Source: Oscillospiraceae bacterium
GTDB lineage: Bacteria > Bacillota > Clostridia > Oscillospirales > Oscillospiraceae
Length of the DNA stretch: 32,000 nucleotides
Assembly (NCBI GenBank): GCA_902778665.1
Contig: CACYYN010000022.1
Span: 14,614-46,613 of the forward strand
Reading direction: 5' to 3'
In this document: in pieces, positions 21,069 through 31,967 of the stretch
Numbering within the stretch: the stretch's first letter is position 1
Layout: each line of letters opens with the position of its first letter
Made by a program: the position numbers and the translations under genes
The notes under the pieces: generated by a model
Told to the model about the DNA's origin: nothing
Seen by the model: the letters and a program-made list of their open reading frames with translations, nothing else
The model's database searches: none

Positions 21069-22034
21069 TTACGTCTCCACCTTTTTGCGGAAAGCATCAA
21101 CTACTGCCATGATGGCCTTGGAGAGCTTTCCTGCTGTCTCCTGATCAGTATTCCGAATTCTAAGCAGGAGCCCGTGGAGGCGGTTCTGGTCCTCCTGCAG
21201 CTGCGTGAAATAGACCTCGAAGGTTGTTATATCCGGTGAAGCTTTCGCAAGCTGCTTCCGGAGGTCCTCGGCTTTCTGCTCGGCAGCGGCTCTGCCCGCT
21301 TCCGCTGCGGCAATTTCCGCCTGTGCCTCGGCATGGGCTTCTTCCCGGATCTCTCTTCTTTTCTCCTCCGATATCACGGGATTCGCTTTCGCATCCGCCA
21401 GGGCTGCACGGGCATCCTGCAGCTTCTTCTCGGCATCTTCTCTTGCCGATTCGGCCTTTTTCGCTTTGTCAACGGCCTTTGCCGCCTCTGTCTGCAGATT
21501 TGTGACCTGCTGGGCCTTCATGTTGAGGTCCCGGTTTGAATCTCTCAACATTTTATTGTCTTCTTCAAGCTTCTTCTGTGCTGAGACGGCAGCATCCCGC
21601 TCCTCGATCGCTTTTTTCAGTTCCCGGACGGACATGCTCTCCACATCGTGCTCTTTCACGAATTCTTCCCGCTCATTTTCCGGCACGGAAAGAAGGGCAA
21701 AAGCCTGAGAAATCCCCAAATTCCGAAACGTTTCGGAATTTAGATCACCGAAAAGGCTCTCCTGATTTGCCCCGTAGGCGTCATAAATCTTCATCATCAT
21801 GGTGGCTTTGTCCTGAGAGAATGGCAGATTCTCCTTGATCCAGTTTCCCCATTCCCCGTGGTCCACCAGTTGCTTTGCCTCGGTGAGCTTTCTCCCCAGC
21901 TGGATGGCATAGGAAAGCTCAGACCGGAGAGCTGTCTGGTAAAGCGTGTTGATCTCTGTCTTGATAATATTGATGTCCCGGAATTCGCCTTCCCGGACGG
22001 CTGTGGTTCTGCTGATGGTCAGTTCGTCGCTCAT
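21069..22034 (-). CDS. DUF3102-family protein with a C-terminal coiled coil, 321 aa
   Basis: The sequence IQLGRKLTEAKQLVDHGEWGNWIKENLPFSQDKATMMMKIYDAYG...SQAFALLSVPENEREEF supports the call. Confidence 0.75.
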   Translation of the reverse strand: MSDELTISRTTAVREGEFRDINIIKTEINTLYQTALRSELSYAIQLGRKLTEAKQLVDHGEWGNWIKENLPFSQDKATMMMKIYDAYGANQESLFGDLNSETFRNLGISQAFALLSVPENEREEFVKEHDVESMSVRELKKAIEERDAAVSAQKKLEEDNKMLRDSNRDLNMKAQQVTNLQTEAAKAVDKAKKAESAREDAEKKLQDARAALADAKANPVISEEKRREIREEAHAEAQAEIAAAEAGRAAAEQKAEDLRKQLAKASPDITTFEVYFTQLQEDQNRLHGLLLRIRNTDQETAGKLSKAIMAVVDAFRKKVET

Positions 22035-23794
22035 GCGGTTGTCCTCCTGTTATTTTTCAGCAGGTAGGGAGCCAGCACATCCGTCTCCCACGCCTGCACA
22101 AAGTCTGTTACTTCTTTCGGGATGCTCAGCCTCTTCCCGTGTGCGTACTCATTGCCGTATCCGTGCAGCTGGATCCGGTGCACTTTGCTGCCGTTCACAT
22201 CCTCGTTGAGTGTGAACCAGCTTCGCTCCGGCCTTCTGGCATGACGGACGAAGAAGATCATCTGCCCCCGGCAGTGCTGTGAGGCATAACCTCCCACGCA
22301 GTGATGCAGCACTGCACCTTCTCTGACCAGTTCCGCAGGACTTTCCGGAATGACAATGCAGTATTCCCCGTTTTTCCATTCCAGTGGAGCATACTTCTTC
22401 TTCATTTCCGCAAAGGTTCGGCACTCTTTCGATGTGCCGATCTTCTTTTGCTCTATTCTGATGGCCGTCAGCGCATCCGATACACGGTCATGAGCGTTCC
22501 GCAGGTCTCTCGGGAATTTCTCCTCCTGCGTCAGCTCTGTTTCCCGCTCCGTCATCTCGCAAAGGCTTCTGAGCATTCTTCTGTAGTCCAGATAATGGAC
22601 CGCATCGGTTTTCTGCTTCTCAATATAGCTGCAGATTCTCCCGAGGCCGTCTGAAAAGAATGGGGTGAAGCGGTCTATTCCGGTAGGATCAATCTGCTTC
22701 CCCCAGGCTGTGAATTCCGCCGCCGTCGTCTTCGGGAAGATCTTCCGATAGTCTTTGAATGCGCCAACCAGCTGAAGCGTCCAGGCATGAGATACGATGA
22801 AACGATAGTCTACCTTCCCGACGCCGAGGATCCGGTGCGGTTTTTTCTCTCTCAGGTCCATGCCAGCCATGTCCGTGCTGTAGCTGTATCTCATACGTGC
22901 CCGCACATAGTCTGACGCAATGGCAGCGCCCCCGGTTTTCACCAGCGCCTCGATGCTCCGGTTCTTTGACCAGATCTTCAGATAAGAGGAAGCGCACAGG
23001 GCATCCTTTGCTTTGAAATAGGTGTCGATCGCTGTTTTCTCTCCCGTGGTGCCGGTCATGTCCTCCACATTGCAGAACATATATGCGCCTGTTGATTTCA
23101 TGTAGAAACCGCCGCCCTCGCAGTACGGCATGGTTTCCGGATCATTCCACCGGCCGATTTTTCTCCATTTCCCATCTGTCCCGGTTCCGTACCGGATGAC
23201 TCTGCCGGAAGGGCTGACAGCCGTCGCACACCTTGCTGCTGCCGTCACAGAGCTATAGCCTGTCTTTTCCAGCCATCTGGTGGCCAGCCAGTAAAGGATG
23301 ACGGTGGTGGTTCCGATTTTCGTCAACTCGGCGATCTGGACCGTGAGGCTTCTTCCATTTATTCTGCTGCGCCTGATAAGCTCTCCCTCCGTGCCGCACA
23401 TCGGGCAGGTCATGGTTTCCCTTTTATTTCCGCTGACATCGAAGGACACGGTTTCAGGTTCTTCGCCGTCCGTCCATCCGTCCAGGAGAAGGCCGTCTTC
23501 CATCTGCAGCATCAGAATCTGTTTGTTCTTATATCCTGCTGTGAAGGTCTCCCCACAGGCAGTGCATCTGCAGGCTGCACCCCAGTGGTTTTTCTCTTCC
23601 ATCGCATAGCTGCCGAAGCTGTTCAGTATGCCCCAGTTGGCCGGGTCCGGCACGCTCTCCCGGGCCCAGATGATCAGGTGAGGTTTGATCTCCTCCAGCT
23701 TCTCCGCATATCTCCGGAGCTTATCATCCGGCTCATACGGGAGTGCTTCAAGCGTTGCCTGCTCCCACTCCCGCTCATCAATTCGTTTTCCCAT
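22031..23794 (-). CDS. PcfJ-like protein, 587 aa
   Basis: The C-terminal sequence LVREGAVLHHCVGGYASQHCRGQMIFFVRHARRPERSWFTLNE...RIQLHGYGNE supports the call. It also has an N-terminal CxxC...CPMC zinc-ribbon-like pairs. Confidence 0.75.
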   Translation of the reverse strand: MGKRIDEREWEQATLEALPYEPDDKLRRYAEKLEEIKPHLIIWARESVPDPANWGILNSFGSYAMEEKNHWGAACRCTACGETFTAGYKNKQILMLQMEDGLLLDGWTDGEEPETVSFDVSGNKRETMTCPMCGTEGELIRRSRINGRSLTVQIAELTKIGTTTVILYWLATRWLEKTGYSSVTAAARCATAVSPSGRVIRYGTGTDGKWRKIGRWNDPETMPYCEGGGFYMKSTGAYMFCNVEDMTGTTGEKTAIDTYFKAKDALCASSYLKIWSKNRSIEALVKTGGAAIASDYVRARMRYSYSTDMAGMDLREKKPHRILGVGKVDYRFIVSHAWTLQLVGAFKDYRKIFPKTTAAEFTAWGKQIDPTGIDRFTPFFSDGLGRICSYIEKQKTDAVHYLDYRRMLRSLCEMTERETELTQEEKFPRDLRNAHDRVSDALTAIRIEQKKIGTSKECRTFAEMKKKYAPLEWKNGEYCIVIPESPAELVREGAVLHHCVGGYASQHCRGQMIFFVRHARRPERSWFTLNEDVNGSKVHRIQLHGYGNEYAHGKRLSIPKEVTDFVQAWETDVLAPYLLKNNRRTTA

Positions 23795-28289: not shown

Positions 28290-28437
28290 TCCATCACCTC
28301 CTTTTACCGCTAACGGTAAATTTGATATTATATTATTACCGTCAGTGGTATTTGTCAACAATTATTTTCCGCTGACGGTAATTTTTTTCTTTACTTTTTA
28401 CCCGTGCTCTATTATACTCGCCTTGGAGGTGAAAAAA
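28290..28437. promoter_or_regulatory. Lysis-lysogeny switch with divergent promoters and three related operator half-palindromes
   Basis: The operators are O1 ttaccgctaacggtaa (28304-28319), O2 ttaccgtcagtggta (28337-28351) and O3 ttccgctgacggtaa (28367-28381). The minus-strand promoter is TTGACA (28353-28358)-17-TAATAT (28330-28335), with O2 in the spacer. The plus-strand candidate is TTTACT (28390-28395)-17-TATACT (28413-28418). Confidence 0.7.
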
Positions 28438-28815
28438 ATGTATGACTTTGCTCCGATTCTCGCAAGAATAAAGCAAGTAAAGAAAGCTGCAAATATGACA
28501 AATGAAGAGCTTTCAAAAGCTTCTGGCATTCCATTTGGTACTATCAACAAGATCTTATCCGGTGATACTCAAGAGCCTAAGCTTCCCGCTCTGATGGCAA
28601 TTGCTTCAGCATTAGGTACTTCTGTAGATTATCTTGTATACGGAGCTTCTAATTCAGCCTCCGTCATTCAAAAAATCAAGCCTGAAGAAGAGCGGCTCTT
28701 TGCCGATTATCGAGATGCCTCCGAGGAGATCCGTGGAGCAGCTGCCAGCATGCTGCATGATTCCGCCGAGCGCAACCGGAAAGATGGGCTCATGAACGGG
28801 CCCAGCGCTGGATAA
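28438..28815 (+). CDS. CI-like XRE-family repressor, 125 aa, with no S24 autopeptidase domain
   Basis: GGAGGTG lies upstream of the ATG. The HTH is MTNEELSKASGIPFGTINKILSGDTQEPKLPALMAIASALGTSVDYLV. Confidence 0.9.
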   Translation: MYDFAPILARIKQVKKAANMTNEELSKASGIPFGTINKILSGDTQEPKLPALMAIASALGTSVDYLVYGASNSASVIQKIKPEEERLFADYRDASEEIRGAAASMLHDSAERNRKDGLMNGPSAG

Positions 28816-28885
28816 AGAAAAACGGGATCCGTGTTCTGGCGGATCCCGGGGAATAAAAAAGCCCCCACCGATGAGGCGGGGAGAT
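28812..28885 (-). terminator. Tandem hairpins between the convergent repressor and GNAT operons
   Basis: One hairpin is cgggatccg / cggatcccg (28823-28848). The other is an imperfect ccccacc / ggcgggg (28863-28881). Each is followed by a T-run on the minus strand. Confidence 0.6.
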
Positions 28886-28949: not shown

Positions 28950-29558
28950 TCATTTAAGATATTTAATCATCTGTATCAAATAGTCTCCTGATATATCAGT
29001 TTCTTCTCGGTCGAGTTCTCTTTTATCGAACTCGCAAAATCCATTGTCTTTATAAAAGTCAACCAGTTTCGGTTTATCTTCACACTCCAGATAAACATAC
29101 CGCCCACCGAGATCAAGCTGAATATTTTTTACCTTTTCACATGCAATCGCAAGAAGTTCATCACCTGTTATCAGTTCATTATACCCGTTCGTGTAATTCT
29201 TTCCCAGTTGAGCTATCAACGGAGCTGTTAATACATATTTTCTGATTTGCGGATAATAAATTGCAAACTTTGCTATCCGCTTTTTATTCGTGCTACTCAA
29301 TCCTTTTGTGGATACAGATATATTTTTATTTGCCAATGTAAAATAGCCTACCAGCACCATTTCCTTTTTATGCGAAGCCATCACCAGATGCGTCTGTGAA
29401 AGGCTCTGCTTTGAAAATTCAATAGCCTTATATCTAAGAAAACTTTCGACGTCCAGATTCAGAGGGCACGAAAAATCAGAGAGGAAATTCTTTGCGAATT
29501 CCTCTCCCATCTCATCCACCAGAATCTTCAGATTAACAACCTTATATCCGTGCATCAT
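28950..29558 (-). CDS. GNAT-fold N-acetyltransferase-like protein, 202 aa
   Basis: The sequence LVGYFTLANKNISV...PLIAQLGKNYTNGYNELITGDELLAIACEKV...GGRYVYLECEDKPKLVDFYKDNGFCEF has the GNAT core beta4-alpha3 and FYxxxGF layout. Confidence 0.7.
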   Translation of the reverse strand: MMHGYKVVNLKILVDEMGEEFAKNFLSDFSCPLNLDVESFLRYKAIEFSKQSLSQTHLVMASHKKEMVLVGYFTLANKNISVSTKGLSSTNKKRIAKFAIYYPQIRKYVLTAPLIAQLGKNYTNGYNELITGDELLAIACEKVKNIQLDLGGRYVYLECEDKPKLVDFYKDNGFCEFDKRELDREETDISGDYLIQMIKYLK

Positions 29559-29737
29559 TGATTCTGGCCCTGCTTAAACATTTCTCTGATTTCCGATCTG
29601 GATGCGACAGAAACAGACCGTTTAAAATGAACTGCTTTTTCTTTTTTCCGGCCTGCATTTTCCAATGCGCTTGCCAGCTTTCTTGCAGTTTCATTATCTT
29701 TGATATGCACAGTTTTCAATATGCTTTTCGTTGCCAT
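29555..29737 (-). CDS. Small partner protein, 60 aa, translationally coupled to the GNAT gene
   Basis: The start is at MATKSILKTVHIKDNETARKLASALENA, preceded by GGGGTG. It shares a 4-nt ATGA overlap with the GNAT start. Confidence 0.6.
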   Translation of the reverse strand: MATKSILKTVHIKDNETARKLASALENAGRKKEKAVHFKRSVSVASRSEIREMFKQGQNQ

Positions 29738-29907
29738 ATTATTCACCCCGTTCTGAGTGCAGCTTCATTTGAGGGAAGATTGTATCTTTTCATAAATACA
29801 CGAAAAGTATAACACACCTTTTTGCTTTTTTGTATGTCTATTTTCCACAATTTTTTTGAAAGAATCATTAATATTTTCGTTGCCTGCAGAAAGAAGGAGG
29901 TGATGCG

Positions 29908-31086
29908 ATGGGCAGGAGGGCAAAATACAAGGCCCGGCCGGACGGGCTGCGGGAGACCACAAAAAGCTATAAGGATTTCGGGCCTTCCCGGTATACCGGC
30001 CGGAAGCACTTCTACGGGCACAGCGATGACGAGGTCGATGCGAAGATCGAGGCCTTTGAGAAGGCGATGAAGTCCGCCCCGGAGAAGAAGGCCCGCTCCT
30101 TCGGAAAGGTCGCCGGTGACTGGTGGCAGGAGAAGGAGCCGACGCTCTCCCCGAATTCCGTCTGCGGATACCGGACGGCCCTGCACCGGGCTGACGAGGA
30201 ATTCGGCAGCATCCCCATCGACGAGATCACCCCGCAGCAGTGCATTGCCTACCTGAAGCGGTTTGCCGCCCAGGGCTACAGCATGAAGGTGATCACGAAC
30301 ACCAAGATCGTGCTGAAAGGGATTCTTGACCATGCGTTCGCCGACGGTGATATCAACAGCAACCCCTGTGCCAATCTGCCGCCGATCAAGGGAGCCGGGA
30401 AAAAGAAACGGCACGCAGCTGAGGATGAGGACATCCAGATTATTGAGCAGACGAAGACGCAGAGCCTATTCGCAAGGATGAGCTACTTCATGCTGTACAC
30501 CGGATGCCGGCGGGGCGAGGCAGCTGCCCTGCAGCAGAAGAACATCGACCGGGAAAAGAAAAAGGCCCGCATCGTGCAGGCGATCGCATACAGCGACACA
30601 AGAAAGCCCCAGCTCAAGCTGCCGAAGAGTGAGGCAGGGTTCCGGGAGATCGATCTCTATGACAATGTGCTGGAGATCCTGCCGGAGTATGAGGATCCGG
30701 AGACCTATGTCTTCTTCCCGGACGGTCTGCCGACGAAGACCTATCTGGAAGCCGGCCTGAAGAAATATCAGGAAGACAACGGCATCCGGGCAACCGCCCA
30801 CCAGCTCCGTCACAGCTATGCCAGCATGCTGCACTCCGCCGGCATCGACGTGAAGGATGCGCAGCATCTTCTCGGGCACAGCACCATCGCCATGACGCAG
30901 GATGTATACACCGAGATCGAGAAGGCGCACGGCAGCGAGATCCGGGAGACGGTGAACGCCTTCATCCAGGACAGGAAGCTGAACAAAGAGAAAAAGACCT
31001 GCCCCGAATGCGGGAGCAGGTATGTGAAAGCACCTGACGGGCATGTGTTTACCTACTGCCCGGACTGCGGTGCAAAACTGGTTTAA
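29908..31086 (+). CDS. int: Tyrosine integrase with a C-terminal zinc ribbon, 392 aa
   Basis: AGGAGGTG lies upstream of the ATG. The catalytic set is TGCRRGE, HQLRHSYAS, LLGHS and QDVYTE. The tail is CPECGSRYVKAPDGHVFTYCPDCG. Confidence 0.95.
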   Translation: MGRRAKYKARPDGLRETTKSYKDFGPSRYTGRKHFYGHSDDEVDAKIEAFEKAMKSAPEKKARSFGKVAGDWWQEKEPTLSPNSVCGYRTALHRADEEFGSIPIDEITPQQCIAYLKRFAAQGYSMKVITNTKIVLKGILDHAFADGDINSNPCANLPPIKGAGKKKRHAAEDEDIQIIEQTKTQSLFARMSYFMLYTGCRRGEAAALQQKNIDREKKKARIVQAIAYSDTRKPQLKLPKSEAGFREIDLYDNVLEILPEYEDPETYVFFPDGLPTKTYLEAGLKKYQEDNGIRATAHQLRHSYASMLHSAGIDVKDAQHLLGHSTIAMTQDVYTEIEKAHGSEIRETVNAFIQDRKLNKEKKTCPECGSRYVKAPDGHVFTYCPDCGAKLV

Positions 31087-31152
31087 GGGTGTCGTATGTC
31101 GTAAAAAATGTCGTAAACGGCTGAGAGGCCCAATAAACACTGGATTCTGTTA

Positions 31153-31178
31153 GGGTTCGAGCCCCCGCTGGAGCACCA
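31153..31178 (+). other. Orphan 3' end of a tRNA gene (T-loop, acceptor 3' strand and CCA), taken as the prophage att core
   Basis: The sequence is gggttcgagcccccgctggagcacca. No complementary 5' acceptor strand (gctccag) lies 60-75 nt upstream, so this is not a complete tRNA. Confidence 0.7.
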
Positions 31179-31182
31179 AAAA

Positions 31183-31221
31183 CCCTTCAAAAGTGAAAGC
31201 TTTTGAAGGGTTTTCTTTTTT
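31183..31221 (+). terminator. Rho-independent terminator of the disrupted tRNA locus (host side)
   Basis: The stem is cccttcaaaag / cttttgaaggg, followed by ttttctttttt. Confidence 0.8.
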
Positions 31222-31367
31222 CTGCTCCGTGATCTCTCTGCTCTGCCGACCTGATCCGGAGAATTTGATAAAACCGGTATTGCTTTTTACCGTCAGATGG
31301 TGATATGATACGAGAAAGGGCAAATCAGGTTGCCCGTTCTGATTTAATAGTACAGGAGGTCTCAGCA

Positions 31368-31967
31368 ATGGTCATCACCATAAGCAGAGAATACGGCGCA
31401 GGCGGACACTCCATCGGCAAAAGCGTTGCGAAAGAACTCGGCATTGAGTTTTACGACCGGGATATCATCAAGGCAGCGGTAAAAGAGAGCGGCCTTGATC
31501 TGCCTGAGGTGGAACGTGTAGAAGAAGAGCTCACCCGCACCGGAATATTCCTGCGGATGATTTCTCCCGCTGCCTATGTGGATGAACAGCACACCGTTCA
31601 TGCAATTGAGCAGCGCGTCATAGTGGAGCTGGCTTTGAAGGAATCTTGTGTCATCCTCGGCAGATGTGCAGACGATATTCTTGAGAAAGCAAATATCCCC
31701 TGTCTGAATGTTTTTCTGTACGCCAGTGACATCCACCGGGCAGCCCGTGTCGGTGAGCTGATCGGCAGTAAGAATCCCACGGAAATTCAGAAGAAAATGC
31801 AGAAGACCGATGCCGCCCGTCGTACCTTCTATGAGCAGTTCACAGGAAAACACTGGGGCGACAGCCGCAATTATACGCTTTCACTGGACACCGGGTTTCT
31901 GGGCTACGACACCTGTATACAGCTGATCTGTGAAGCTGCCCGCAAAGCCGACGCTTTCCAGATCTGA
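31368..31967 (+). CDS. Cytidylate-kinase-like family protein (host gene), 199 aa
   Basis: The start is at MVITISREYGAGGHSIGKSVAKELGIEFYDRDII, preceded by AGGAGG. The N-terminal P-loop-like motif is typical of this family. Confidence 0.75.
   Translation: MVITISREYGAGGHSIGKSVAKELGIEFYDRDIIKAAVKESGLDLPEVERVEEELTRTGIFLRMISPAAYVDEQHTVHAIEQRVIVELALKESCVILGRCADDILEKANIPCLNVFLYASDIHRAARVGELIGSKNPTEIQKKMQKTDAARRTFYEQFTGKHWGDSRNYTLSLDTGFLGYDTCIQLICEAARKADAFQI

What the first reader, a model, noticed from the sequence alone, without database searches (positions are those of the whole stretch)
28950..29737. GNAT acetyltransferase with a non-canonical 60-aa upstream partner in the integrase-repressor slot
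Seen in the sequence:
- Two minus-strand genes share an ATGA overlap and lie between the CI-like repressor and the integrase.
- The segment is strikingly AT-rich. A hand count gave about 30% GC on one 60-nt line, against about 58% in the adjacent integrase.
- The pair ends in tandem terminators.
- The 202-aa product has GNAT hallmarks (IAQLGKN...ITGDELL..., FYKDNGF).

Established knowledge: GNAT toxins such as TacT, AtaT and KacT acetylate aminoacyl-tRNA. They are paired with an upstream RHH/DUF1778 antitoxin.

Inference: this is a TA-like or exclusion module in the classic lysogenic-conversion slot. The partner (MATKSILKTVHIKDNETARKLASALENA...) does not look like DUF1778 to me, so the pairing may be a new variant.
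Basis: partly seen in the sequence, partly recalled or inferred. Interest (0 to 1): 0.7.

Follow-up and report, generated by a model that had tools for sequence, protein, structure and literature searches.

The report
Phage GNAT-toxin relative with new partner
A prophage carries a two-gene cassette: a distant relative of the enzymes that poison bacteria by acetylating charged tRNA, always paired with an unannotated 60-residue protein; the same uncharacterised pair sits in hundreds of Firmicutes genomes and temperate phages, including prophages of S. aureus and C. difficile.

Summary
Two translationally coupled minus-strand genes (60 aa at 29555-29737, 202 aa at 28950-29558, ATGA overlap) form a low-GC island (37.9% against 58.6% in the integrase). 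They lie between an HTH repressor and a tyrosine integrase and end in two terminator hairpins.

The 202-aa protein matches no Pfam model. Its AF2 model and profile searches place it specifically with the tRNA-acetylating GNAT toxins (GmvT, AtaT, TacT, KacT): hhalign 98%, E 1.5e-13. Its invariant Tyr169 aligns with AtaT Tyr144.

The 60-aa partner is not DUF1778, RHH or DUF4065. It belongs to an unannotated family with an invariant Met-Ala-Thr-x-Ser N-terminus.

The partner lies directly upstream of the GNAT gene in 172 of 172 loci, spanning Clostridia, Negativicutes, Paenibacillus, Staphylococcus and Streptococcus phages. Partner-only loci exist (4 of 80). GNAT-only loci were never seen.

Best reading: a toxin-antitoxin-like accessory cassette of temperate phages with a new kind of neutralising partner. 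Toxicity, substrate and role are inferred, not shown. Two features depart from canonical systems: a basic partner with a near-neutral enzyme, and a degenerate acetyl-CoA loop. No paper in the held library describes the pair. Verdict: new variant of a known kind, interest about 0.6.

The parts
29555..29737 (-). Partner gene, 60 aa (MATKSILKTVHIKDNETARKLASALENAGRKKEKAVHFKRSVSVASRSEIREMFKQGQNQ). Basic (pI 10.5). New unannotated family with invariant M1-A2-T3-x-S5.
   Evidence: ORF and Shine-Dalgarno sequence. PHROG 3291 'unknown function', E 2e-12. No Pfam, NCBIfam or PDB hit. Present upstream of the GNAT gene in 172/172 loci. Synonymous codon variation at the invariant residues. AF2 monomer pLDDT 71.6, helices 15-29 and 47-55, N-terminus unstructured.
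28950..29558 (-). GNAT-fold acetyltransferase gene, 202 aa. Remote homologue of tRNA-acetylating type II toxins. Invariant Q117, G132 and Y169 (Y169 at the catalytic Tyr position).
   Evidence: PHROG 1758 'acetyltransferase', E 6e-49. AF2 pLDDT 86.8. Top Foldseek matches are the toxin structures AtaT, AtaT2, GmvT, KacT and TacT1-3, and entry 7byy ('bacterial toxin'). hmmsearch against PDB hits only GNAT toxins, best 1.1e-7. hhalign against DUF1778-linked toxins 98%, E 1.5e-13.
29555..29558 (-). ATGA stop/start overlap, implying translational coupling of partner and GNAT.
   Evidence: Sequence. In relatives the gap between the two genes is -32 to +26 nt.
28862..28882 (-). First intrinsic-terminator-like hairpin followed by a T-run, 68 nt after the GNAT stop codon.
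28823..28848 (-). Second terminator-like hairpin (9 pairs, 7 G-C) followed by a T-run. It lies 8 nt beyond the convergent repressor gene's stop.
29738..29907 (.). AT-rich (34% GC) divergent spacer between the partner gene and the integrase gene. SD GGGGTG at 29749-29744. By eye, a candidate extended -10 (TGTTATACT, 29814-29806) on the minus strand. No convincing operator palindrome.
   Evidence: The promoter is an inference by eye; the consensus scan found none on the minus strand here.
28435..28815 (+). Context, not part of the cassette: CI/Xre-type HTH repressor, convergent with the cassette.
   Evidence: HTH_3, E 3e-12.
29908..31086 (+). Context, not part of the cassette: tyrosine integrase with a C-terminal zinc ribbon, divergent from the cassette.
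   Evidence: Phage_integrase, E 3e-17.

Best explanation
**What it is.** This is a self-contained, horizontally acquired accessory cassette ('moron') of a temperate siphophage-like prophage. It encodes a toxin-antitoxin-like pair. The second gene makes a divergent member of the tRNA-acetylating GNAT toxin lineage (TacT, AtaT, KacT, ItaT, GmvT).

**Proposed mechanism (inferred by homology).** The enzyme uses acetyl-CoA, with Tyr169 as the catalytic acid, to acetylate the alpha-amino group of aminoacyl-tRNA(s), which halts translation. The first gene makes a 60-residue basic protein. It is translated first and coupled to the enzyme through the ATGA overlap. It binds and neutralises the enzyme.

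**How the partner might act (inferred).** The partner lacks the ribbon-helix-helix DNA-binding domain and the C-terminal toxin-binding tail of DUF1778 antitoxins. I propose its strictly invariant processed N-terminus (Ala-Thr-x-Ser after Met removal) contacts the equally invariant catalytic pocket.

**Proposed role (inferred).** The cassette either stabilises the prophage (addiction) or aborts or excludes superinfecting phages when partner supply fails.

**Shown here:** gene structure, coupling, foreign base composition, own terminators, GNAT fold, specific homology to the toxins, conserved catalytic Tyr, obligate pairing and co-divergence of the two genes, residence on mobile elements, and asymmetric loss (partner-only loci exist, enzyme-only loci do not).

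**Inferred:** toxicity, tRNA substrate, neutralisation mode, biological role.
For: **Homology to the toxins**
- AF2 model pLDDT 86.8, pTM 0.81.
- Nearly all of the top 40 or so Foldseek PDB hits are GNAT toxins (E 1e-8 to 1e-6, TM 0.55-0.76).
- A 62-sequence family profile hits 14 PDB sequences at E<0.01, and all 14 are GNAT toxins (GmvT 1.1e-7, AtaT about 8e-6). No other GNAT appears.
- hhalign against eight DUF1778-linked plasmid toxins gives 98.0%, E 1.5e-13 over 136 columns.

**Catalytic residue**
- Y169 is invariant across 62 sequences of 35-58% identity.
- It aligns with AtaT Y144, the residue mutated to Phe in entries 6gtp, 6gtq and 6gtr. The corresponding KacT mutant is Y145F in 5xun.

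**Module behaviour**
- The partner lies immediately upstream in 172/172 GNAT-seeded loci, at 29-100% GNAT identity.
- Partner and GNAT divergence correlate (Mantel r=0.71, 0/500 permutations reach it).
- Of 80 partner-seeded loci, 76 have the GNAT gene downstream and 4 are orphans. L184 has a partner identical to that of L183/L082 but has lost the GNAT gene.
- One in-frame partner-GNAT fusion exists (P0237).

**Mobile context**
- The window is a prophage with TerL, portal and tape-measure genes.
- Relatives occur in C. difficile phiC2 and phiCD119, S. aureus P954, Streptococcus satellites, C. botulinum c-st and IMG/VR contigs, next to tyrosine or serine integrases or in late-gene accessory slots.
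- The cassette has low GC and its own terminators.

**Literature**
- The toxin field expected few GNAT toxins in Firmicutes. It left GNATs with short non-DNA-binding upstream ORFs as an open case (PMC9177977).
Against: - No experiment supports the model. Toxicity and substrate rest on remote homology, about 15% identity to solved toxins.
- The acetyl-CoA pyrophosphate loop is degenerate. The canonical Q/R-x-x-G-x-G/A (QGQGWG in AtaT) is N-E-L-I-T-G here. Only the last Gly (G132) is kept.
- Charge is reversed relative to canonical systems. The enzyme family has median pI 6.9 and the partner 10.0. Eight canonical toxins have median pI 8.8 and their DUF1778 antitoxins 6.5. This weakens the expectation of a tRNA-binding basic surface on the enzyme. 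It also fits a nucleic-acid-binding or targeting role for the partner.
- No operator-like palindrome was found upstream, and the partner has no recognisable DNA-binding domain, so classical autoregulation is unsupported.
- PADLOC has no model for either protein, so there is no independent link to defence.
Confidence: 0.55

Rival explanations
1. An obligate two-subunit acetyltransferase that is not a toxin. The basic small protein is an activating or targeting subunit that brings RNA, DNA or a host protein to the enzyme. Alternatively it is itself the substrate, acetylated on its invariant N-terminal Ala or on Lys4. The pair would then modify a host or phage component for lysogenic conversion or counter-defence.
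For: - M1-A2-T3-x-S5 is invariant at the protein level, with synonymous codon variation. Ala2 is a standard substrate for Met removal and N-alpha-acetylation (established knowledge of RimI/RimJ-type GNATs).
- The partner is basic and the enzyme near-neutral, the reverse of canonical toxin and antitoxin.
- The partner has no DNA-binding domain.
- An in-frame fusion, P0237, exists.
- The CoA loop is degenerate, which suggests altered chemistry.
Against: - Profile searches hit only the aminoacyl-tRNA-acetylating toxins and no protein N-acetyltransferases.
- Partner-only loci exist while enzyme-only loci do not. This is the asymmetry expected for an antidote, not for a helper subunit or a substrate.
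- The order 'small gene first, overlapping stop/start' is the typical type II TA layout.
Confidence: 0.25
2. A canonical GNAT/RHH toxin-antitoxin system in disguise. The partner would be a severely shortened, diverged ribbon-helix-helix (DUF1778-derived) antitoxin that still dimerises, binds an operator and neutralises the toxin. That would make this an already known TA class.
For: - The partner has the beginning of an RHH pattern: an N-terminal extended segment (SILKTVHIK), then helix 15-29, often followed by Gly, and a late short helix (SRSEIREMF) that resembles the N-cap of an RHH second helix (the resemblance is my reading).
- The only hhalign alignment to DUF1778 overlays beta1-alpha1 on beta1-alpha1.
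- The enzyme is homologous to DUF1778-linked toxins.
Against: - hhalign probability is 1.0%.
- None of 66 diverse partners hits any RHH or DUF1778 Pfam model, even at E<=10.
- The partner profile has no PDB sequence hit at E<=10, although TacA, AtaR, KacA and GmvA structures are present in the PDB (their entries appear).
- Foldseek returns nothing for the partner model.
- The partner is 58 aa against about 94 aa for DUF1778 proteins, so it lacks the C-terminal toxin-binding region.
- A roughly 17-residue non-helical insert sits where the RHH turn should be.
- DNA-contact residues would not be expected to stay invariant from Staphylococcus to Clostridia.
Confidence: 0.12
3. An ordinary cargo acetyltransferase (for example antibiotic or metabolite modification) preceded by an unrelated or spurious small ORF.
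For: - Databases call some members 'N-acetyltransferase' or 'GNAT family acetyltransferase'.
- Makarova et al. 2009 initially favoured antibiotic resistance for GNAT-RHH pairs (PMC2701414).
Against: - The small ORF is conserved in 172/172 loci, has a Shine-Dalgarno sequence and shows protein-level selection.
- Homology is specific to toxins.
- Relatives occur on phages and satellites, not in metabolic operons.
Confidence: 0.03

Closest known systems
Type II GNAT toxins with DUF1778 antitoxins (TacAT, AtaRT, KacAT, ItaRT, GmvAT)
   Same: - Both have a GNAT fold, and homology is specific (hhalign 98%, E 1.5e-13).
- Both share the N-terminal F-x-C-x...L...A motif, the beta4 segment and the FY..GF segment, with the catalytic Tyr conserved.
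- Both are bicistrons with the small gene first and overlapping the enzyme gene.
- Both reside on mobile elements.
   Different: - The partner is unrelated in sequence and is 58 aa rather than about 94 aa. It has no RHH and no C-terminal neutralising tail.
- The enzyme is about 30 residues longer. It has two extra helices after beta1 and an insert between beta3 and beta4.
- The CoA loop is degenerate.
- Charge is reversed between the two proteins.
- The hosts are Firmicutes and their temperate phages, not Proteobacterial plasmids and chromosomes.
DUF4065 (Panacea)-GNAT pairs, 'clade C' of Bikmetov et al. 2022 (PMC9177977)
   Same: This is a precedent for a GNAT toxin that has swapped its DUF1778 antitoxin for an unrelated partner.
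   Different: The partner here has no DUF4065 match and is far smaller. The enzyme lies outside what that study sampled: it reported GNAT toxin homologues 'almost absent' from Firmicutes.
GNATs outside the 'true TA clade' with short, divergent upstream ORFs (Bikmetov et al. 2022, discussion)
   Same: The description fits: a bicistronic TA-like locus whose short upstream ORF has no predictable DNA-binding domain and whose function is unknown.
   Different: Those upstream ORFs were described as divergent. Here the partner is a single coherent family with an invariant N-terminus, co-diverging with the enzyme across at least 527 species genomes. I could not establish whether any of their sequences belong to this family.
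PHROG 1758 ('acetyltransferase') and PHROG 3291 ('unknown function')
   Same: The window proteins are members: E 6e-49 and 2e-12.
   Different: These are clustering labels only. They state no link between the two families, no link to toxins, and no function.

Membership tests
tRNA-acetylating GNAT toxins (TacT/AtaT/KacT/ItaT/GmvT) | GNAT fold | tested here: met
   AF2 pLDDT 86.8. Foldseek top hits are GNAT toxins, TM 0.55-0.76.
tRNA-acetylating GNAT toxins (TacT/AtaT/KacT/ItaT/GmvT) | Sequence homology specific to the toxin lineage rather than to GNATs in general | tested here: met
   Family profile against PDB: all 14 hits at E<0.01 are toxins, best 1.1e-7. hhalign against eight DUF1778-linked toxins: 98.0%, E 1.5e-13. 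Pfam GNAT models barely see the family: 8 of 62 members, best E 5.5e-4.
tRNA-acetylating GNAT toxins (TacT/AtaT/KacT/ItaT/GmvT) | Catalytic tyrosine in the FY..GF segment (AtaT Y144, KacT Y145) | tested here: met
   Y169 is invariant in 62 diverse members. It aligns with AtaT Y144, counted from the HMMER alignment. The Y-to-F mutant names come from the PDB titles.
tRNA-acetylating GNAT toxins (TacT/AtaT/KacT/ItaT/GmvT) | Acetyl-CoA pyrophosphate-binding loop Q/R-x-x-G-x-G/A before alpha3 | tested here: inconclusive
   The aligned segment is N-E-L-I-T-G, against QGQGWG in AtaT. Only the last Gly (G132, invariant) is retained. Binding is through backbone amides, so activity is not excluded.
tRNA-acetylating GNAT toxins (TacT/AtaT/KacT/ItaT/GmvT) | Basic protein or surface for tRNA acceptor-stem binding | tested here: inconclusive
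   Family median pI is 6.9 (window protein 7.6), against 8.8 for eight canonical toxins. Surface electrostatics were not computed.
tRNA-acetylating GNAT toxins (TacT/AtaT/KacT/ItaT/GmvT) | Growth arrest through N-acetylation of aminoacyl-tRNA | not testable with these tools
   Needs expression and LC-MS.
tRNA-acetylating GNAT toxins (TacT/AtaT/KacT/ItaT/GmvT) | Cognate upstream DUF1778/RHH antitoxin | tested here: not met
   See the DUF1778 rows.
DUF1778 antitoxins (TacA/AtaR/KacA/GmvA), for the 60-aa partner | Match to the DUF1778 (or any RHH) profile | tested here: not met
   No such Pfam hit among 17 plus 66 partner sequences, even at E<=10. hhalign against eight DUF1778 proteins gives probability 1.0%. 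No PDB sequence or fold hit.
DUF1778 antitoxins (TacA/AtaR/KacA/GmvA), for the 60-aa partner | About 90-100 aa, with a C-terminal toxin-binding extension after the RHH | tested here: not met
   Partner family median is 58 aa (54-68), against 94 aa (88-109) for DUF1778.
DUF4065/Panacea antitoxins | DUF4065 domain in the partner | tested here: not met
   No Pfam hit.
Type II toxin-antitoxin module (generic) | Two small adjacent co-directional genes, antidote first, overlapping or closely spaced | tested here: met
   ATGA overlap in the window. Gap of -32 to +26 nt in 172 loci.
Type II toxin-antitoxin module (generic) | Strict co-occurrence and co-evolution of the pair; residence on mobile elements | tested here: met
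   172/172 loci paired. Mantel r=0.71. Phages, satellites and prophages.
Type II toxin-antitoxin module (generic) | Toxin never found without antidote, while orphan antidotes are tolerated | tested here: met
   0 of 172 loci have a solo enzyme. 4 of 80 have a solo partner, including a recent enzyme loss in L184.
Type II toxin-antitoxin module (generic) | Antitoxin binds an operator and autoregulates | tested here: inconclusive
   No DNA-binding domain was detected and there is no palindrome in the 170-bp spacer. The partner is basic (pI 10), so DNA or RNA binding is possible.
Type II toxin-antitoxin module (generic) | Toxicity of one product, rescue by direct binding of the other, labile antidote | not testable with these tools
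Needs experiment.

The most novel reading that the evidence does not exclude
The cassette defines a new class of GNAT toxin system specific to temperate phages of Firmicutes. The antidote would be a minimal 58-residue protein that neutralises the enzyme through its invariant, Met-processed N-terminus (Ala-Thr-Lys-Ser). It would act as a mimic of the aminoacyl alpha-amine, either as a pseudo-substrate plug or as a suicide acetyl acceptor in the active site. The module would act as a prophage-borne abortive-infection or exclusion switch in pathogens such as S. aureus and C. difficile.
Probability: 0.2. Interest if true: 0.8.

Novelty: new variant of a known kind. Interest (0 to 1): 0.62.

Why it matters
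tRNA-acetylating GNAT toxins have been studied almost entirely in Proteobacteria, paired with DUF1778 antitoxins. A 2022 survey reported them 'almost absent' from Firmicutes and suggested a physiological reason (PMC9177977).

This locus belongs to a large, coherent and unannotated family:
- 2,220 clusters at 50% identity.
- Relatives in at least 527 species-level genomes.
- More than 1,000 contigs each in S. aureus and C. difficile, all labelled 'hypothetical'.

The family is a specific homologue of those toxins, is carried by temperate phages and satellites, and has a different kind of partner. If it is toxic, three things follow:
- It fills the Firmicutes gap.
- It offers a new neutralisation mechanism to study.
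- It adds a candidate prophage stabilisation or phage-exclusion function to clinically important lysogens, including phiC2- and phiCD119-type C. difficile phages and P954-type S. aureus phages.

If it is not toxic, it shows a toxin scaffold re-purposed as a two-subunit phage acetyltransferase. Both outcomes are directly testable with cloned gene pairs from cultivable phages.

Tried and rejected
- **Library scans of the 202-aa protein.** Pfam, NCBIfam and PADLOC gave no usable hit. phmmer of the single sequence against the PDB also found nothing. Homology appeared only with family profiles.
- **Searches on the partner.** Pfam (17 and 66 members), PDB profile searches, Foldseek on its low-confidence model and PADLOC gave nothing significant. 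The weak PDC-M05A (E 0.008) and tRNA_edit (E 0.037) matches are noise-level.
- **Operator or RNA switch.** The spacer has only a 20-nt two-copy direct repeat and a 12-nt inverted repeat between the putative -10 region and partner codons 3-6. Across 120 loci, complementarity between the 5' region and the coding sequence is no better than shuffles (8.2 against 7.9 nt). I rejected it as chance.
- **tRNA attachment site.** No tRNA gene is present in the window.
- **Literature.** Five full-text searches found no paper characterising this pair. The supplements of PMC9177977 that are held hold no Firmicutes or phage entries.
- **Ordinary cargo GNAT reading.** Rejected on the 172/172 pairing and the toxin-specific homology.
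- **Genome scan with the diverse alignment.** It was repeated with A1.
Full report
**1. The observation**

The minus strand of 28950-29737 carries two ORFs. One is 60 aa, from ATG 29737 to stop 29555-29557. The other is 202 aa, from ATG 29558 to stop 28950-28952. Their stop and start overlap as ATGA. A Shine-Dalgarno-like GGGGTG lies 6 nt before the first ATG.

The pair is 37.9% GC and the upstream spacer 34.1%. The adjacent integrase is 58.6% and the window as a whole 48.6%. It is the most AT-rich 788-nt stretch of the window.

Two terminator-like hairpins with T-runs follow the 202-aa gene, at 28882-28862 and 28848-28823.

The neighbours are an HTH_3/CI-type protein (about 28435-28815, plus strand, convergent) and a tyrosine integrase (29908-31086, plus strand, divergent). 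The rest of the window is a prophage with terminase, portal and tape-measure genes. A cytidylate-kinase-like host gene lies beyond the integrase.

**2. The 202-aa protein**

No Pfam, NCBIfam or PADLOC model matches it, and phmmer against the PDB finds nothing. PHROGs places it in phrog_1758 'acetyltransferase' (E 6e-49).

It has thousands of relatives. A word-indexed search found 2,171 proteins. An exhaustive profile search found 2,220 clusters at 50% identity at E<=1e-3.

An AF2 model built on 32 homologues is confident (pLDDT 86.8, pTM 0.81). Foldseek against the PDB returns GNAT folds. Nearly all of the top 40 or so are the tRNA-acetylating toxins: AtaT, AtaT2, GmvT, KacT, TacT and TacT1-3, plus entry 7byy, titled 'bacterial toxin' (E 1e-8 to 1e-6).

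Because GNAT folds are ubiquitous, I asked whether sequence agrees. A profile of 62 diverse members (35-58% identical to the window protein) was searched against all PDB sequences. It gives 14 hits at E<0.01, and every one is a GNAT toxin (GmvT 1.1e-7, AtaT about 8e-6, AtaT2 2e-5, TacT3, TacT1, TacT, TacT2, KacT). No other acetyltransferase appears.

I then collected eight DUF1778-plus-GNAT pairs from plasmids. Profile-profile comparison of the phage family with these canonical toxins gives 98.0% probability, E 1.5e-13, over 136 columns.

- the N-terminal F-S-C-P...FL..KA segment, equivalent to F-D-C-G...WL..RA;
- IAQLGKN, equivalent to LGRLAVD (beta4);
- ITGDELL, equivalent to GFGKWLL (start of alpha3);
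- FYKDNGF, equivalent to FYERFGF.

Only three residues are invariant across the 62 sequences: Q117, G132 and Y169. Counting along the HMMER alignment, Y169 matches AtaT Y144. That is the residue replaced in the Y144F crystallisation mutants; KacT has the corresponding Y145F mutant.

Differences from the canonical toxins:
- about 30 extra residues (two short helices after beta1, and an insert between beta3 and beta4);
- a degenerate CoA loop (NELITG instead of QGQGWG);
- a near-neutral pI (family median 6.9, against 8.8 for the eight canonical toxins).

**3. The 60-aa partner**

It is a member of phrog_3291 'unknown function'. It has no Pfam, NCBIfam or PDB match, either alone or as profiles of 17 or 66 sequences. 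Its AF2 monomer model (pLDDT 71.6; helices 15-29 and 47-55; unstructured N-terminus) has no Foldseek match.

Against eight DUF1778 antitoxins, hhalign gives 1.0% probability. The family is 54-68 aa, against 88-109 aa for DUF1778, and is strongly basic (median pI 10.0 against 6.5). It is therefore not a DUF1778, RHH or DUF4065 antitoxin by any test available here.

Across 66 diverse members the invariant residues are M1, A2, T3 and S5, with A24 and L25 near-invariant. Codons 2, 3 and 5 vary synonymously, and 107 of 111 distinct contexts have a Shine-Dalgarno sequence. So the conservation acts on the protein.

A profile search of 5.8 billion proteins finds only stand-alone proteins of roughly 56-100 aa. 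None has a domain, and the only names are 'hypothetical protein'.

**4. The pair as a unit**

In 92 phage or virome loci and 80 genome loci seeded with the GNAT gene, a partner gene lies immediately upstream in all 172. The gap is -32 to +26 nt, across 29-100% GNAT identity. Partner and enzyme divergence are correlated (Mantel r=0.71; none of 500 permutations reaches it).

Seeding with the partner instead, 76 of 80 loci have the GNAT gene downstream and 4 do not. In one of those (L184) the partner is identical to that of an intact pair (L183/L082) but the enzyme gene is gone. One database protein (P0237) is an in-frame partner-GNAT fusion.

The asymmetry is what an antidote-poison pair predicts: the enzyme never occurs alone, while the partner sometimes does.

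**5. Distribution and position**

Relatives occur in:
- C. difficile phages phiCD119, phiC2 (phiC2p82/p83), phiMMP01/03, phiCDHM19 and phiCD418;
- S. aureus phage P954 (gp68/gp69);
- Streptococcus satellite prophages;
- C. botulinum phage c-st;
- Solobacterium and Latilactobacillus phages.

They also occur in at least 527 species-level genomes, all Bacillota. The closest are rumen and gut Oscillospiraceae at 77% identity. Exact-sequence look-ups show the S. aureus and C. difficile versions on more than 1,000 contigs each, always named 'hypothetical'.

The position varies:
- next to a tyrosine integrase, as in this window;
- next to a large serine recombinase (L001-L006);
- after the late regulator near the genome end (phiC2, phiCD418);
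- after the endolysin (P954);
- before the small terminase (SMO_1P).

These are typical accessory-gene ('moron') slots rather than one fixed slot.

**6. Mechanism**

The best-supported reading is a toxin-antitoxin-like cassette. By homology, the enzyme acetylates aminoacyl-tRNA using Y169. The co-translated partner binds and silences it. The phage gains stabilisation or exclusion of competitors.

The neutralisation mode must differ from DUF1778 systems, because the partner has neither their DNA-binding domain nor their C-terminal tail. The N-terminus is the only part of the partner that stays fixed from Staphylococcus to Clostridia, so I infer that it contacts an equally fixed surface, most plausibly the catalytic pocket. 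This step is inference only.

Evidence that cuts the other way:
- charge is reversed between enzyme and partner;
- the CoA loop is degenerate;
- there is no operator palindrome.

These keep open a non-toxic two-subunit acetyltransferase, in which the partner is a targeting subunit or the substrate (rival 1, 0.25). A cryptic, truncated RHH antitoxin (rival 2, 0.12) is not excluded by the secondary-structure pattern, but it fails every profile test.

**7. Comparison with what is known**

Makarova et al. 2009 listed GNAT-RHH and GNAT-Xre pairs (PMC2701414). Bikmetov et al. 2022 made four relevant points (PMC9177977):
- they defined a DUF1778-linked 'true TA clade';
- they found a DUF4065-linked subclade;
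- they stated that GNAT toxin homologues are almost absent from Firmicutes.

Five full-text searches found no paper on this pair.

**8. Verdict**

The locus works like a GNAT toxin module and is homologous to one on the enzyme side. It fails the membership test on the antitoxin side. I classify it as a new variant of a known kind. It is of moderate-to-good interest because it is widespread, unannotated, present in phages of major pathogens, and immediately testable.

Noticed in passing
window 29908-31086 (integrase residues about 357-390): The tyrosine integrase ends in a CxxC...CxxC zinc-ribbon (KKTCPECGSRYVKAPDGHVFTYCPDCGAKLV; Zn_Ribbon_TF E 3e-5). This is an unusual C-terminal appendage for a phage integrase.
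   Followed up: no
family-wide (alignments A4-A7): Charge is reversed relative to canonical GNAT TA systems. The phage GNAT family has median pI 6.9 and its partner 10.0. Canonical toxins have 8.8 and DUF1778 antitoxins 6.5. This is unexplained. It may mean the partner, not the enzyme, supplies nucleic-acid binding.
   Followed up: partly
L173, L184, L187, L236 (partner at about 1501-1662 in each): These are orphan partner genes with no GNAT gene downstream. In L184 the partner is identical to that of an intact pair elsewhere. In L236 it is followed by a 291-aa protein whose identity I did not check. They could be remnants or anti-addiction/anti-exclusion genes.
   Followed up: partly
P0237 (248 aa, metagenomic protein): An in-frame fusion of a partner-like N-terminus (MATFIDKND...AKRFLSAVNEAK...) to a GNAT-family body. 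It is either a natural fusion or an assembly or calling artefact. Only one example was seen.
   Followed up: no
L109 and L110 (Blautia producta DSM 2950 chromosome, 1.24 Mb and 4.17 Mb): Two copies of the cassette, with identical partner sequences, occur in one complete genome. This suggests two related prophages or a duplication.
   Followed up: no
window 21072-23794, minus strand: A PcfJ-like protein (587 aa, E 4e-23) and a DUF3102 protein (321 aa, E 5e-41) sit side by side in the early region of the prophage. As far as I recall, both are better known from conjugative plasmids of Firmicutes; I did not check this.
   Followed up: no
window 29716-29735 / 29865-29884 and 29720-29731 / 29800-29811: A 20-nt direct repeat (80%) brackets the spacer: GGCAACGAAAA occurs both in partner codons 2-5 and just upstream of the integrase start. 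A 12-nt inverted repeat links the putative -10 region to partner codons 3-6. A survey of 120 loci showed no excess of such complementarity, so this is probably chance.
   Followed up: yes
window 31087-31304 and the whole window: No tRNA gene is present anywhere in the window. The prophage abuts a cytidylate-kinase-like gene (31305-31964). The attachment site was not identified.
   Followed up: no
L009 (C. botulinum phage c-st, CST141/CST140) and L007 (phiC2p83): Deposited annotations mis-start these genes. CST141 is called as 89 aa although the conserved partner begins at an internal MATISF. CST140 and phiC2p83 are called shorter than the full GNAT ORF. Such mis-calls help hide the pairing in databases.
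   Followed up: partly
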